This document shows positions 17,047 through 22,867 of a stretch of DNA of 64,000 nucleotides, one piece after another (position 1 is the first letter of the stretch; each line of letters begins with the position of its first letter). The DNA lies in the IMG/VR virus record IMGVR_UViG_3300042473_001368; one strand, 5' to 3'. This stretch comes from a virus. Position numbers and translations under genes: made by a program. The notes under the pieces are model-generated. The model ran no database searches and had not been told where the DNA came from. It worked only from the letters and a program-made list of their open reading frames with translations.

Positions 17047-19089
17047 ATGCATATTAATATTTACGACGAACTACTTACTCGCTGCGGAAACTCTGTGTAT
17101 AGTTCTATATGGTGGCCTGTAGCAACCAACGTAAGAGATAAAATTCCTTCGGAAATGTGGGATTTTTATAAAACTACTATTATACGAGATGGTACAACTG
17201 GCTCATTAAGCAGAGAAGTAGATAATGAGGTAGGAAATTATGAATATTGAAACTATAATTGATTGTGATATCGGTCACAGATGTCGTACTGCATTTCGTC
17301 AAGAGCTTGAGAATATTTGCAAGGTCAACTTTGATGGCCATGAGTATTACGGCCTTTATATTGAGCTGACATATGATATTGACACAGTTACTGACAGCCT
17401 ATATTTTAATTTTGAAGACACCGCAGATAGCTATTACTATGATTGATTTAGGTGAAGAGATAAGATACAAGATACAACTCTCAGCTCGTGACGCGATTAC
17501 TTCAAAATTGATAGCAGTTAAGCATATGACATTTTCTGGTTATGGCATGGCTGATGATGAGATGTGGAATGAGATTATCTCGCCAATGACACGTCTTGCT
17601 ACTGAGCTAAAGGTATGGGGAGAGATTGGACGATATGAATATTGAACGCAAAATATATTATGACCCATGCAACTATAGTTGGGGTGATATACAAACAAAC
17701 GCATTAAAACAAATTCGTAATACAAGAAGCATCGAGGATATCATGGTTGTGGTCTCGGGTGTTGAAGAGCTATGCGATGAAGTGAGAATGCAAAGCACGC
17801 TTGAACTTTTCATTGCTAATCACAATCCTGGTAATATACTAACAACAGAAAATGAAGAAGAACATCCACGGTGAGATTGAAGGCGAGTTGATGGATAATA
17901 CTCAAGATGCATTATGCGAATTGAGAAGCAGTGTATTTGGCAATGGCACATATATGAATAATCCCGTTCATATGCACTATCACGATACAATAAACAATCA
18001 GCTATTTCTACAAACAGTATGCACCATTAAACAAAAGCTTAATGCAGAATTTTTCAGTAGAGACATTGAAGGCATAGCAAAAATTATGAAACAAGCGCAT
18101 GAAAGATTACAACGACCGCGTATTAGCAGAAGAAATCGCTGATTTCGATAAATTCAGAAAAATCACTACAGCGATCTATAGTGCTTGGAACGATAGAGCA
18201 GATTATCGTGTATCTAATGCTGTGCTTGTAGGGGTATTTGATGGTGTGAATCCGATACAACTTCTTTCATGCGTTGGTGCTAGTCTGAAATATTATGAAT
18301 ATTGAAAGTAAAATAGATTTTCATATGTGGGCTTCAATTCGAGGCCGTCTGCGCGACTCTTTGGAGAGTTTCATTGACCGGGATGTTGATTATTATGCTC
18401 AGCACGATGTGATCGATGAAGTCTTTGAGCCTGTGTGTCAATCTGCTGATGACAGTGTGAAGAATAGTGTGAGAACAGCAATAGAAGAATATGAATATTG
18501 AAAAGAAAATAGTTGATTCTGTGGTGGATGCTGCGTGCAATTCTGTGTATGGTGCTGTGTATACCAATGTATGTAATTCTGTATCTACTAATGCTAGACA
18601 TCTCGGTTGGTTTTCTGTATATAGTGCTGTGTGGAATCCAGTAGAAGATACTGTTAGTAGCAAAATAAACGAATATGAATACTGAAAAGGAAATATATGA
18701 CTCAGTTCATGGCTCAGTTTGGAGCTCGGTTTATAGCTCAGTTCATGGCTCAGTTATTAACTCAGTTCATGACTCAGTTCATGGTTCAGTTTATGGCTCA
18801 GTTTATATCTCAGTTTATGACTCAATTTATGGCTCAATTGACAATGCAATAAACGGATATGAATATTAAAAACGAATTAACAAACTCATGCAATAGTGTG
18901 TCAATGAAAGTAGAATTAGATCTTTATAATAGCGTAAGTAATTGCGCTACACTTACATCAGTGACAACTGTTAAGCTTGCTCTTGTGCATGATCTTTGCA
19001 AGGTAATGAATTATGCATCGCCGATTAGTGTAAAACACGCTGTAGATAGTGAAATAGAACAATATAGATACAATGCAATTGGGTCCTGA
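17047..19089 (+). CDS. MNIE/EYEY chain 2: ten overlapping small ORFs (17047..17250, 17240..17446, 17439..17645, 17635..17874, 17852..18142, 18099..18305, 18295..18501, 18491..18685, 18675..18869, 18859..19089)
   Basis: Mostly 11-nt ATGAATA(T/C)T(G/A)A overlaps; headed by motif 17010. Confidence 0.75.
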
Positions 19090-19110
19090 AAGACTAAATA
19101 GAGCTATAAG

Positions 19111-20660: not shown

Positions 20661-20691
20661 AACGAACTAGTGTATAATATAATGAAGGGGT

Positions 20692-22867
20692 ATGTATAAT
20701 AAAATTGACAAGGTAGCAGAGATGATAGAATCTCCGCCATATTCTCAGGTGAGATCTTGTGTTTTTAGTTGCATAGATGGTGCTGTAAAACAGGATGCGT
20801 GGCATTATGTAGTTGCTAACACGCATAACGCAACATTCTCTGTAAGAGCTTCTGTTTACGAATCAATTAGGGAATATGAATATTGAAAAGAAAATAGATG
20901 TTTCAGTTTGGAGCTCAGTTTGGGGCTCAGTTTATAGCTCGGTTAATGGCTCAGTTAGGAGCTCAGTTTGGACCTCAGTTTGGACCTCAGTTGATAGCTC
21001 AGTTAATAACTCAGTTTATGACTCAGTTATTAACTCAGTTTGGGACTCAGTTTGGAGCTCAGTTGATAATACAATAAAGGAATATGAATATTGAAAAGGA
21101 ACTAAGGGATAATATTGCGAGATATGTAAATCATGCTGTGTATATTTCAGTATATAGTCGTATATACGACTCAGCGCCTGAAGTTGAAACAGATGTATAT
21201 TTTAGGGTACGACTTTCTGTAGGCGATATAGTGACGAGTTCGCTCAAGGGTAATACATCAACGCATATTGAAAACTATAGCTATAAGAAGTAAAATGAGC
21301 GCACCAGTAGAATATATTGTTGGGAACTGTACCTATGGTATTATTGATAATGTAGTATATAATCAAATAATAGTAATATGTGGAGACGCTATTGAGAGAG
21401 ATCCTTCTATTGTTATTTGGGAGGAGTTCTATAAAAGTGTGAACGACTCTACAAGTGGCAGTTTACGTAGAACTATTGCTACTAACATTATCAACTATGA
21501 ATATTAAAAATGAGGTATATGACGATGTATGTCTTAATGTAGATTACCCTTTGCGGGAAGAGCTAGGTGATTTTTTGTTAGGTTGTGTAAGCAGTGCCGC
21601 GTATAACTCTGCGTGGTATTCGTTGTGGGAGTCTTTACGAGATCCAACAATCAGTCCGCAGAGTTGTACCGATGATGTAGTAGGTGAATATGAATATTGA
21701 TAGCGAAATACACTATAATGTACGAGACACGGTAAGGTCTTCTGTAGGCCATGCACTTTGGGATTCTGTGAGCGATATTATTACTCTCCATGTTACATGC
21801 TCATTGAGTGCTCCTCTGAGGAATAAGGTTGATGATATTGTAAGCGTTGTAAGTGATACTGTATACACAGCAATATATGAAACAAATGAATATTGAAAAG
21901 GAAATATGGGAGAGAGCGTGCGAGGGCGAGTGGCATTCAGTATCTCAGACTGTGTGGAAAGCTACTCTTCGTAATAATCTAATGGCTAATTGTTTGGTGT
22001 CAGAAACTGTACGAAGTGTTGAGTATGCAGTGCGAGATTCTTTGCAGTCTTCTGTAGAGCAAGCTGTTGATAATACAATAAAGGAATATGGATATTGAAA
22101 AGGAAATAGATCGCTCAGTTGGTGTTACAGTTTTTGACTCAGTTAGTGTCTCAGTTTGGAGCTCGGTTTATAGCTCAGTTCATGGCTCAGTTTGGAACTC
22201 GGTTAGTAACTCAATTTATGGCTCAGTTGGCGTCTCAGTTTGGGACTCAGTTGATGATACAATAGCAGGATATGAATATTGAAAAGGAAATAGATGACTC
22301 AGTTTATGACTCAGTTTATGACTCAGTTTGCGACTCAGTTAGTGACTCAGTTGGTGCCTCAGTTCATGGCTCAGTTATTAACTCAGTTCGTAGCTCAGTT
22401 TGGGGCTCAGTTCATATCTCAGTTAGGAACTCAGTTGATAATACAATAAAGGAATATGAATATTGAAACGGAGATAAAAGAAATTACAAGAAATTCCGTG
22501 TTTATGAGTGTATATTGCAAGATACACTCGTGTGCTCATAGTAATATAGCTAAACAAGTTTTACAAGACACTTACATACTGAGTCAAAGGGTGTATGATA
22601 GCGCACGGGTAACTGCTATAAAAACCGAAGAACACAAAAACAATATAAATGAAAGATATTAACCTCATTGTAGACTTCCGTATATCTAGTAAAGAACACA
22701 TTGCAACATTAACTATAGCACGCTCTATAGAAAACGCTGTCGAGTATGGTGTATGGTCGAGTGCGTGGATAGGAGTAAAAGCACCTGTGCGTGATACTGT
22801 AGGCGAATTTTCGACTGTAATAGATCCATTTCTACGCCCTAGAGCTGTTAAAACCGTACAATTTTAG
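20692..22867 (+). CDS. MNIE/EYEY chain 3: eleven overlapping small ORFs (20692..20886, 20876..21094, 21084..21293, 21268..21507, 21497..21700, 21690..21896, 21886..22098, 22088..22282, 22272..22466, 22456..22662, 22649..22867)
   Basis: 11-nt overlaps at 8 junctions; headed by motif 20661. Confidence 0.8.

What the first reader, a model, noticed from the sequence alone, without database searches (positions are those of the whole stretch)
18675..22466. Combinatorial 12-nt micro-repeat genes: constant CTCAGTT plus 5 variable nt
Seen: four paralogs are strings of NNN-RNC-TCA-GTT. Identical multi-unit blocks recur in different registers: TGGAGCTCGGTTTATAGCTCAGTTCATGGCTCAGTT in 18675 and 22088, CATGGCTCAGTTATTAACTCAGTT in 18675 and 22272. 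20876 is 8 aa (two units) longer. Inference: slippage or gene conversion among units diversifies two exposed residues per helical turn on a Ser-Val scaffold.
Basis: partly seen in the sequence, partly recalled or inferred. Interest (0 to 1): 0.75.

Follow-up and report, generated by a model that had tools for sequence, protein, structure and literature searches.

The report
Hypervariable Ser-Val tetrapeptide-repeat phage mini-genes
An uncultured T4-like phage carries four tiny genes made almost wholly of a fast-changing four-amino-acid repeat (x-x-Ser-Val); they are free-standing copies of a repeat tract that other phages and prophages carry inside an unstudied protein (DUF6745), and they resemble a known repeat-number-tunable phage counter-defence protein, but their function is still unknown.

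Summary
Four + strand genes (18675-18869, 20876-21094, 22088-22282, 22272-22466) are in-frame 12-nt arrays, nnT-RnC-TCA-GTT. They hold 40 of the window's 49 CTCAGTT sites. Multi-unit blocks are shared between them in shifted registers more often than chance allows.

They are protein-coding. They are the DNA-homogeneous extreme of a family of about 26 small acidic proteins with fixed caps (MNIEKEI... / ...EYEY) and Val/Ile at every fourth residue. AlphaFold2 predicts one long helix.

A 91-97% identical relative keeps the upstream gene at 194/195 nt. Its copy of gene 20876 differs at 35/65 variable positions, at 3/91 core positions, and by one 12-nt indel. Relatives carry 48-92 aa versions in steps of 4 aa. 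Neighbouring units share rare core variants. This points to unit slippage plus exchange between paralogs. A diversity-generating retroelement is excluded on pattern.

A profile search links the tract to thousands of proteins, many of them DUF6745 or DUF7666 proteins with the same tract inside. The phage encodes a repeat-less DUF6745 protein at the head of the array.

The closest studied analogue is mycobacteriophage Tweety gp54, which is not a homologue. Function is inferred only: a variable binding helix, possibly for counter-defence. This scan reported the same class earlier on other phage DNA.

The parts
18675..18869 (+). Ser-Val mini-gene 1 (64 aa): MNTEKEI cap, 12-13 units of x-x-S-V, tail ...NGYEY.
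   Evidence: Shares a 3-unit block with gene 22088 and a 2-unit block with gene 22272. Absent from the close relative L101, along with its three neighbouring cassettes.
20876..21094 (+). Ser-Val mini-gene 2 (72 aa, 14-15 units). It is the first sequence of alignment A1 and the protein modelled by AlphaFold2.
   Evidence: Its positional counterpart in L101 (5332-5538) keeps the first 36 nt but differs at 35/65 variable and 3/91 core positions, plus one 12-nt indel.
22088..22282 (+). Ser-Val mini-gene 3 (64 aa).
22272..22466 (+). Ser-Val mini-gene 4 (64 aa). It overlaps gene 3 by the 11-nt ATGAATATTGA junction and starts with the neighbouring units DSVY DSVY DSVC DSVS DSVG.
   Evidence: Tandem Repeats Finder also finds a 184-nt period (2.2 copies, 80% matches) across genes 3 and 4.
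8796..8978 (+). Decayed Ser-Val-type family member (60 aa). 14 of its 15 Val/Ile residues fall in one register of four, and its codons are mixed.
18491..18685 (+). Decayed family member (64 aa). The S/A-V pairs are encoded by TCT-GTG, GCT-GTG and similar codons, and 12 of its 14 Val/Ile residues fall in one register.
   Evidence: A close relative, P0086, exists in metagenomes.
20872..20889 (+). One example of the conserved dual-coding junction GAATATGAATATTGAAAA (EYEY-stop overlapping the MNIEK start). The same junction lies at 18671, 21080, 22084, 22268 and 22452.
   Evidence: 19 matches with up to 3 mismatches, against 0.21 expected.
11480..12454 (+). Repeat-less DUF6745 protein (324 aa, P0155). 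It is homologous along its whole length to the proteins that carry the tetrapeptide tract internally.
   Evidence: Pfam PF20530, E 4.9e-8, 32.9 bits against a cut-off of 27. Alignment A3. AlphaFold2 mean pLDDT 88, with low confidence at about residues 91-110, where relatives hold the tract. The G001 homologue (75% identical) lies one gene upstream of that phage's Ser-Val array.
20625..20654 (+). Terminator-like hairpin after the 497-aa gene. A TATAAT hexamer follows at 20673-20678, just before gene 20692, which heads the sub-array containing mini-genes 2 to 4.
   Evidence: for the hairpin. The hexamer is from direct reading. Function not tested.

Best explanation
The four features are real protein-coding mini-genes. 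Each encodes a short acidic protein: an 8-residue N-cap, 12-15 tetrapeptide units [x1][x2]-Ser-Val, and an 8-residue C-cap. The protein is predicted to be one long helix.

They are free-standing copies of the hypervariable tetrapeptide tract that many phage, prophage and cellular proteins carry internally, between an N-terminal domain and DUF6745, or after a DUF7666-like domain.

How they change (inferred from sequence patterns):
- 12-nt units are gained and lost by replication slippage or unequal recombination.
- Multi-unit blocks move between paralogs. Whole cassettes are swapped through the conserved junctions.
- Purifying selection holds Ser and Val. The x1 position (mostly Y, W, R, D, S, H, N, G) and the x2 position (mostly N, D, G, S, V, I) are free or under diversifying selection.
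- Rapid unit turnover keeps the synonymous bases uniform (nnT RnC TCA GTT).

What they do (inferred, weak): they act as variable, length-tunable binding helices in phage-host or phage-phage conflict, as the tetrapeptide tract of Tweety gp54 does. They probably work together with the repeat-less DUF6745 protein encoded at the head of the array.
For: Coding frame:
- The frame that gives the shared caps is the one used by all 26 or so family members.
- Ser-Val is kept at the amino-acid level with other codons in decayed paralogs. Of their 33 SV dipeptides, none uses C-TCA-GTT.
- Bacterial and archaeal tracts keep Ser-Val with lineage-specific codons: TCC-GTG, TCG-GTG, TCT-GTA, TCG-GTC, TCA-GTC.
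- In G001/G002, the synonymous core positions vary more (entropy 0.93 and 0.92 bits at positions 9 and 12) than the first and second core positions (0.11-0.62).

Turnover:
- Neighbouring identical units: 20 observed, 7.5 expected.
- Shared 2-unit blocks: 25 versus 5.3. Shared 3-unit blocks: 7 versus 0.08. None of 2000 shuffles reaches any of these three counts.
- Duplicated units carry rare core variants, for example GISA GISA, ESSV ESSV with TCT, and CNSL CNSL.
- Gene lengths run from 48 to 92 aa in steps of 4 aa. P0003 equals P0001 minus two units.
- The L101 comparison shows 1/195 differences in the upstream gene, against 35/65 at variable and 3/91 at core positions of the mini-gene, plus a 12-nt indel.
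- Cassette content differs between the window and L101.

Uniform codons are not codon bias:
- TCA is 21% of Ser codons and GTT is 40% of Val codons in the window's long genes. In the four mini-genes the counts are 45/49 and 47/47.

Fold: one helix over residues 3-71, mean pLDDT 80.5.

Link to DUF6745:
- The profile search gave 3080 hits at E <= 1e-3. Many are 240-580 aa proteins with the tract inside.
- hhalign of A1 against P0093 gives probability 97.8%.
- The window and G001 both encode a repeat-less DUF6745 gene upstream of the array.

Analogue: Tweety gp54 has a 12-bp unit, two fixed residues and fixed third codon positions. Its repeat number differs between phages, and repeat-number mutants escape the Phrann gp29/gp30 defence (PMC2884959; PMC9262239).
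Against: - No expression, binding or phenotype data are available.
- The helix prediction is moderate, and a strict 4-residue period does not fit ordinary coiled-coil packing.
- The mini-genes lack the large end domains that the Tweety model uses.
- Window, G001/2 and G003 share the same synonymous choices (T, C, TCA, GTT). Yet the ribonucleotide reductase (RNR) large subunit is only 69% identical in protein between the window and G001, and its fourfold sites are saturated at 35% same base. Simple concerted evolution in separate lineages does not predict this. It needs gene flow between these phages or a constraint at the nucleotide level.
- The L101 difference could be wholesale replacement by another paralog rather than in-place diversification.
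- G003 shows no DUF6745 gene in its 86-kb fragment.
Confidence: 0.6

Rival explanations
1. Neutral 'selfish' repeat dynamics. The arrays are slippage-prone minisatellites inside dispensable small ORFs. The variety at x1 and x2 is relaxed constraint, and neither the diversity nor the length has any function.
For: Cassettes come and go between close relatives. Uniform synonymous bases show DNA-level amplification. There are fewer distinct unit types than independent assortment would give: 64 against 86 +/- 5. Nothing is known about function.
Against: The family is kept in many copies in at least three diverged phage lineages and in other metagenomic viral clusters of 58-148 members. Ser and Val, the caps and the open frame are all maintained. 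x1 is strongly skewed toward Y, W, R, H, D, N, S and G, and its second base is never C in 294 units. The same tract is kept in thousands of larger proteins.
Confidence: 0.2
2. Diversity-generating retroelement. A reverse transcriptase copies a template repeat with adenine-specific errors into these genes.
For: Variation sits at first and second codon positions with fixed third positions, as in NNC/NNT codons of known retroelement targets. The flanks are conserved. The counterpart gene in L101 is strongly diverged while its neighbours are nearly identical.
Against: - The A of TCA would be a target, and changing it is silent. Yet it is kept in 50/54 (window), 27/28 (L101), 105/141 (G001/2) and 61/71 (G003) units.
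- Unit position 4 is almost only A or G, and position 2 is never C.
- Unit indels and duplicated neighbouring units are not retroelement products.
- No template copy was seen. All runs of three CTCAGTT cores in the related phage contigs lie in loci holding family genes, and 40 of the window's 49 sites lie inside the four genes.
- No RVT_1 match in G001-G004.
- No reverse transcriptase among the window ORFs scanned against Pfam or PHROGs.
Confidence: 0.03
3. The functional product is the +1 frame, which reads as hydrophobic x-x-Q-F/L peptides starting at an ATG just after an AAGGA motif. Alternatively the loci are dual-coding.
For: All four window genes have an open +1 frame of 48-59 codons. 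Three of them start with ATG at the same place, 5 nt after AAGGA.
Against: The +1 frame has stops inside the repeat body in 10 of 23 Ser-Val genes, including the L101 counterpart of gene 20876. Many lack a start codon. The frame stays open simply because x1 codons rarely have T as second base.
Confidence: 0.04
4. A DNA- or RNA-level element. The CTCAGTT array is a set of binding sites, such as iterons, a recombination hotspot or an RNA sponge, and the ORFs are incidental.
For: The same synonymous bases are kept across phage clades whose RNR fourfold sites are saturated.
Against: The arrays fit exactly between the family's protein caps. Decayed paralogs keep the protein period but not the DNA motif. 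Cellular tracts keep Ser-Val with other codons. In G001/2, synonymous core positions drift more than non-synonymous ones.
Confidence: 0.05

Closest known systems
Mycobacteriophage Tweety gp54 (with Che8 gp57 and PMC gp51), a tetrapeptide-repeat 'tunable' counter-defence protein (PMC2884959, PMC9262239)
   Same: In-frame 12-bp unit. Two fixed residues and two variable residues. Third codon positions are fixed while first and second positions vary. One variable codon is NGG-like (W/G/...). Repeat number differs between related phages. The gene is dispensable and variably present.
   Different: The fixed pair is Ala-Ala, not Ser-Val. There is no detectable sequence relationship (hhalign probability 0.6%). 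gp54 has an N-domain of about 145 aa and a C-domain of about 45 aa around 48 units. The mini-genes here have only 8-residue caps and 12-15 units, and occur as many tandem paralogs. gp54's function was shown by genetics; nothing has been tested here.
Internal tetrapeptide tract of DUF6745 (Pfam PF20530, phrog_31813) proteins, for example M. abscessus prophage prophiGD102-1 gp38 and metagenomic proteins P0008 and P0016
   Same: The same tract design, [W/R/G..][D/A/G..]-[S/Q]-[V/L], with all third positions fixed within an array. Profile matches are strong. The phage's own DUF6745 protein aligns along its whole length with these proteins but lacks the tract.
   Different: Here the tract is a separate gene product in many copies, and it has far more x1/x2 variety than the cellular tracts, where only two nucleotides per unit vary. 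DUF6745 has no known function or fold. No paper mentions it, and there is no structural match.
DUF7666-type proteins: an N-domain, then the Ser-Val tract, then a C-terminal domain of about 60 aa with an ...SFDGK.WRLH... motif (for example P0049, P0077, P0093)
   Same: The same Ser-Val tract. The tract ends in a Y-x-Y-like motif (for example YAYLG, YGYIS) that faintly recalls the EYEY cap. This last point is my own reading.
   Different: These proteins have flanking globular domains that are absent here. The cap resemblance is weak and untested.
Bordetella phage BMP-1/BPP-1 variable region 2 in bbp36 (as described in PMC2884959)
   Same: A tandem in-frame repeat with a fixed core plus a short variable spacer. 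Copy number varies between isolates, and the gene is non-essential.
   Different: The unit is 24 bp with three spacer types, in a different protein. It was not examined here.

Membership tests
Tweety gp54-type tetrapeptide-repeat counter-defence proteins | In-frame tandem 12-bp units with two fixed and two variable residues, and fixed third codon positions | tested here: met
   The design is described in PMC2884959.
Tweety gp54-type tetrapeptide-repeat counter-defence proteins | Repeat number differs between related phages | tested here: met
   48-92 aa in steps of 4 aa. A 12-nt indel against L101. P0001 and P0003 differ by two units.
Tweety gp54-type tetrapeptide-repeat counter-defence proteins | Unique N- and C-terminal domains flank the tract, and their spacing is what is tuned | tested here: not met
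   Only 8-residue caps. gp54 has about 145 aa and about 45 aa domains.
Tweety gp54-type tetrapeptide-repeat counter-defence proteins | Sequence homology to gp54 | tested here: not met
   hhalign of A1 against P0154: probability 0.6%. gp54 falls in phrog_3416; the mini-genes do not.
Tweety gp54-type tetrapeptide-repeat counter-defence proteins | Blocks a host or prophage defence, with escape achieved by a change in repeat number | not testable with these tools
   Needs genetics. The host is unknown.
DUF6745 (PF20530) tract-bearing proteins | Tetrapeptide tract of the same type | tested here: met
   hmmsearch with A1: 3080 hits at E <= 1e-3, top hits 1e-48 to 1e-30. Sequences. hhalign 97.8%. Caveat: repeat profiles inflate scores, and a few hits are spurious eukaryotic microsatellite translations (P0004).
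DUF6745 (PF20530) tract-bearing proteins | DUF6745 domain in the same polypeptide | tested here: not met
   No Pfam hit in the mini-genes. The domain is on a separate, repeat-less gene at 11480-12454.
Diversity-generating retroelement target | Reverse transcriptase nearby | tested here: inconclusive
   No RVT_1 in G001-G004, which are 24-51% complete. None among the window ORFs scanned. The rest of this genome is not held.
Diversity-generating retroelement target | Template repeat, with variation limited to template adenines | tested here: not met
   No extra copy was found. The A of TCA is conserved although changing it is silent. Position 4 is A or G only. Unit indels are present.
Phase-variable contingency locus (simple-sequence on/off switch) | Change in repeat number shifts the frame or the promoter spacing | tested here: not met
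   The unit is 12 nt, so every change stays in frame. Only length and content vary.

The most novel reading that the evidence does not exclude
The mini-genes are a detached, interchangeable library. Each helix can dock into the site on the phage's repeat-less DUF6745 protein where relatives carry the tract. One scaffold would then display any of dozens of fast-evolving surfaces, giving a phage-encoded combinatorial recognition or counter-defence system diversified by slippage and cassette exchange rather than by a retroelement. A variant of this reading: the free helices pair with the tracts of host or prophage DUF6745 proteins and disable them.
Probability: 0.25. Interest if true: 0.85.

Novelty: new variant of a known kind. 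Interest (0 to 1): 0.62.

Why it matters
Hypervariable tetrapeptide tracts have been studied in one protein, Tweety gp54. There, a change in repeat number retunes a counter-defence.

Here the same design appears stripped to the tract alone and multiplied into arrays in lytic T4-like phages. It has much richer residue variety, dominated by Tyr, Trp, Arg, Asp, Asn, Ser and Gly. From general knowledge, these are residues typical of binding interfaces.

If the variety is functional, this is a natural peptide-display library. It evolves by simple replication slippage and recombination, and would be a new source of candidate anti-defence or host-takeover factors.

It also offers a way into DUF6745, a large family with no known function, through a split-gene (Rosetta-stone) relationship. 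Finally, it flags a class of genes that breaks assemblies and escapes annotation.

Tried and rejected
- Pfam, PHROGs, NCBIfam and PADLOC on the mini-genes gave nothing above threshold.
- blastn of the 5-kb region and tblastn of the 72-aa gene-20876 mini-protein against 50,697 phage records gave no match. The low-complexity filter probably masks the repeats.
- tblastn of the repeat-less DUF6745 protein P0155 against the same phage records gave no match.
- No whole genome is held for this window.
- Homodimer prediction of the 72-aa protein (complex prediction, 2 copies) returned no verdict, with scores 0.01 and 0.00. This says nothing either way. It also used the only complex job, so docking of a mini-protein onto the DUF6745 protein could not be tried.
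- Foldseek against PDB with the helix model gave no match.
- Foldseek and VIA-align with the P0155 model gave nothing above Z 4.7.
- The profile search against PDB sequences gave only a chance hit, E 0.74.
- G004 against G001 looked at first like a strain difference in the array. But G004's contig simply starts inside the array, and the 17 mismatches lie in its first 50 nt, so this is probably an assembly-end artefact. G001, G002 and G004 are the same phage and give no population signal.
- Literature searches for DUF6745, DUF7666 and 'SVWDSV' found no papers.
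Full report
**Setting.** The window comes from an uncultured, distant T4-like phage. It has a gp23-like major head protein (phrog_138), at most about 33% identical to cyanomyophage capsids. It also has ribonucleotide reductase (RNR), ATP-dependent DNA ligase, ThyX and a T4-type scaffold protein. No whole genome is held.

Between about 6.5 and 24.1 kb, the + strand carries about 26 small ORFs of 59-90 aa. Most start MNIE(K/T)EI and end (E/G)YEY. They are chained by the overlap ATGAATATTGA. The 18-mer GAATATGAATATTGAAAA matches 19 times with up to 3 mismatches, against 0.21 expected.

**The observation.** Genes 18675-18869, 20876-21094, 22088-22282 and 22272-22466 are in-frame period-12 arrays.
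- They hold 40 of the window's 49 CTCAGTT sites, where 11.5 are expected.
- Each unit reads x1-x2-Ser-Val.
- Per-position counts show positions 8 and 11 invariant. Positions 6, 7, 9, 10 and 12 are about 87-93% constant. Position 3 is T or G, position 4 is A or G, and position 2 is never C in 294 units from four phages.
- Synonymous choice depends on position. Among NNY codons in the window, x1 ends in T 29 times and C once, while x2 ends in C 29 times and never T (Fisher p = 5e-16). Ser is TCA in 45/49 units and Val is GTT in 47/47.
- The window's long genes use TCA for 21% of Ser, GTT for 40% of Val and GAC for 28% of Asp. The other family members encode 33 Ser-Val pairs without once using C-TCA-GTT.

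**Coding or not.** The reading frame is the one that yields the family caps.
- Val/Ile periodicity of four is significant (p <= 0.03) in 18 of the 26 family members, including members with mixed codons. Nearly all of them are acidic, mostly pI 4-5.
- The four genes are therefore the DNA-homogeneous end of a protein family built on a tetrad period.
- The +1 frame (x-x-Q-F/L) is open in all four window genes. It has internal stops in 10 of 23 Ser-Val genes across relatives, including the closest one, so it is a by-product of composition.

**Relatives.**
- Exact-pattern scans of IMG/VR found the family on four contigs that represent two phages: G001 = G002 = G004, and G003.
- A protein word search found P0001-P0003. 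The protein atlas shows viral clusters of 58-148 members.
- These phages are well diverged from the window. The RNR large subunit is 66-69% identical in protein. For G001, fourfold sites in conserved residues keep the same base only 35% of the time, which is saturation.
- Even so, their Ser-Val genes use C-TCA-GTT in 80 of 108 units.
- Gene lengths are 48, 50, 52, 60, 64, 66, 68, 69, 72, 84 and 92 aa.

**A close relative.** Contig Ga0222712_10018734 (L101) is 91-97% identical to the window over 14.6-21.1 kb.
- The gene upstream of mini-gene 20876 is identical at 194/195 nt, and the first 36 nt of the mini-gene are identical.
- The repeat body then differs at 40/156 aligned nt plus one 12-nt gap. 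That is 35/65 at unit positions 1-5 and 3/91 at positions 6-12.
- Aligned units differ at up to five bases each. The arrays are therefore not unit-by-unit orthologous; they have been turned over or replaced from within the repeat.
- L101 also lacks cassettes 18295, 18491, 18675 and 18859, with one unrelated family gene in their place.
- L101 has another Ser-Val gene where the window has gene 21084. That gene shares a block with gene 18675.

**Mechanism of change.**
- Identical neighbouring units are in excess: 20 against 7.5 expected, 0 of 2000 shuffles.
- Several neighbouring pairs share rare core variants, for example ATC-TCA-GCT-GGT twice, AGC-TCT-GTT-GAG twice, and AAC-TCA-CTT-TGT twice. 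This is the signature of 12-nt duplication.
- Shared two- and three-unit blocks between paralogs (25 against 5.3, and 7 against 0.08) show exchange or common blocks with unit indels.
- There are 137 distinct units among 277. Among the 175 units with a perfect core there are 64 variable 5-mers, where 86 +/- 5 are expected under independence. Unit types are therefore reused.
- A retroelement does not fit. The silent A of TCA is conserved, position 4 is restricted to purines, and unit indels occur. No template copy was found. No reverse transcriptase was found in the relatives or in the window ORFs that were scanned.

**Wider kinship.** An exhaustive profile search with the 20-sequence alignment A1 gave 3080 representatives at E <= 1e-3. 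Apart from a few spurious eukaryotic microsatellite translations, two builds recur.
- One build is proteins of about 370-580 aa: an N-terminal '...LT.EQ...' domain, then 25-60 units of [W/R/G][D/A]-S-V, then DUF6745.
- The other build is proteins of about 140-300 aa: a DUF7666-like head, the tract, and a short '...SFDGK.WRLH...' tail.
- A DNA pattern scan of species-representative genomes found such tracts in Cyanobacteria, Acidobacteria, Dehalococcoidia, Dependentiae, Patescibacteria, Proteobacteria and archaeal metagenome-assembled genomes.
- In each, all third codon positions are fixed, but to lineage-specific codons. Only unit positions 1 and 5 vary. That is what concerted evolution of each array predicts.
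- A named example is gp38 of Mycobacterium abscessus prophage prophiGD102-1, whose tract is x-x-Q-L.
- The window itself encodes a repeat-less member of this family at 11480-12454: PF20530, 32.9 bits against a cut-off of 27. It aligns over both the N-domain and DUF6745.
- G001 has a 75% identical copy. One gene downstream of it, that phage's Ser-Val array begins. In the window, an HNH endonuclease gene and three other genes are inserted in between.
- Domain fusion elsewhere plus a conserved neighbourhood here make a functional link plausible, but it is inferred. DUF6745 has no literature and no structural neighbour.

**Structure.** AlphaFold2 on A1 gives one helix over residues 3-71, with mean pLDDT 80.5 and pTM 0.36. 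The protein atlas's own model is similar, with pLDDT 0.68. A strict four-residue period makes the Val stripe wind about 40 degrees per unit; this is my calculation from 100 degrees per residue. Ordinary left-handed coiled-coil packing is therefore unlikely, and the partner surface is unknown.

**Comparison with what is known.** The published precedent is Tweety gp54. It has 12-bp units, an invariant Ala-Ala pair, invariant third positions, and 48, 26 and 15 units in three phages (PMC2884959). Defence-escape mutants change the repeat number and so tune it against Phrann gp29/gp30 (PMC9262239). I fetched gp54. It shares the design but not the sequence (hhalign probability 0.6%), and it has large end domains that the mini-genes lack. 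The mini-genes therefore work like a gp54-type tract at the level of evolutionary design, but they are not members of that family. They do match the tract of DUF6745 and DUF7666 proteins, but without those domains.

**Unexplained.** Three phage lineages with saturated synonymous divergence share the same synonymous bases in the unit, and also in the caps, for example ATA for Ile-7. Cellular lineages each fix their own codons. Gene flow of cassettes between co-infecting phages, slow drift of a large pool of interchanging units, or a nucleotide-level constraint could each account for this. I could not separate them.

**Earlier notes of this scan.** After my own analysis, look-ups showed that other agents had reported the same class on other phage DNA as 'detached DUF6745 tetrapeptide-repeat mini-gene arrays'. 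They gave the same Tweety comparison and claimed that a model docks the helices onto the repeat-less DUF6745 protein. My results agree on the class and on the kinship. I could not test the docking claim.

**Verdict.** The slippage and gene-conversion reading is supported. The retroelement idea is rejected. Function is unknown, with a variable binding or counter-defence helix as the best guess. Relative to the published literature this is a new variant of a known kind.

Noticed in passing
window 11480-12454 (+), with an overlapping 296-aa ORF at 11471-12361 (-): A repeat-less DUF6745 protein is encoded on the + strand. The long ORF on the opposite strand is probably spurious.
   Followed up: partly
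window 12444-13595 (-): An HNH homing-endonuclease gene (phrog_559) lies between the DUF6745 gene and the 114-aa gene at 13729-14073. G001 has those two genes adjacent, so this looks like a mobile insertion.
   Followed up: partly
window 15165-15788 and 15772-16308 (+): Two overlapping genes carry leucine-rich-repeat-like units (...N.LT.LEG.P...). They and the PcfJ-like gene at 14149-15162 are absent from the matching stretch of G001.
   Followed up: no
all Ser-Val genes (window, L101, G001/2, G003): Synonymous choice depends on position. x1 NNY codons end in T (143:5) and x2 NNY codons end in C (171:7), and this is shared by phage lineages whose RNR fourfold sites are saturated. No explanation was settled.
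   Followed up: partly
P0016 residues 152-235 and P0093 residues 44-134: The PADLOC model PDLC03396 ('Type II nicking endonuclease') matches the tetrapeptide tract at its profile positions of about 394-484. Some annotated restriction-type proteins therefore seem to carry the same tract.
   Followed up: no
G004 (IMGVR_UViG_3300042291_001899), positions 1-50: The contig begins inside a Ser-Val array, and its first 50 nt disagree with the otherwise identical G001. These arrays break or scramble short-read assemblies.
   Followed up: yes
window 39867-40377 and 37249-37362: Unrelated tandem repeats: a 63-nt unit x 8.1 copies and a 35-nt unit x 3.3 copies (Tandem Repeats Finder).
   Followed up: no
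window 18295-19089 versus L101 3329-3541: Four family cassettes in the window are replaced by one unrelated family gene in a 91-97% identical relative. Whole cassettes are swapped at the conserved junction.
   Followed up: partly
P0049, P0076 and P0093, C-terminal edge of the tract: In DUF7666-type proteins the tract ends in a Y-x-Y-like motif and starts after ...(D/E)I..L(K/R).W. This faintly recalls the EYEY and NIEKEI caps of the mini-genes.
   Followed up: no
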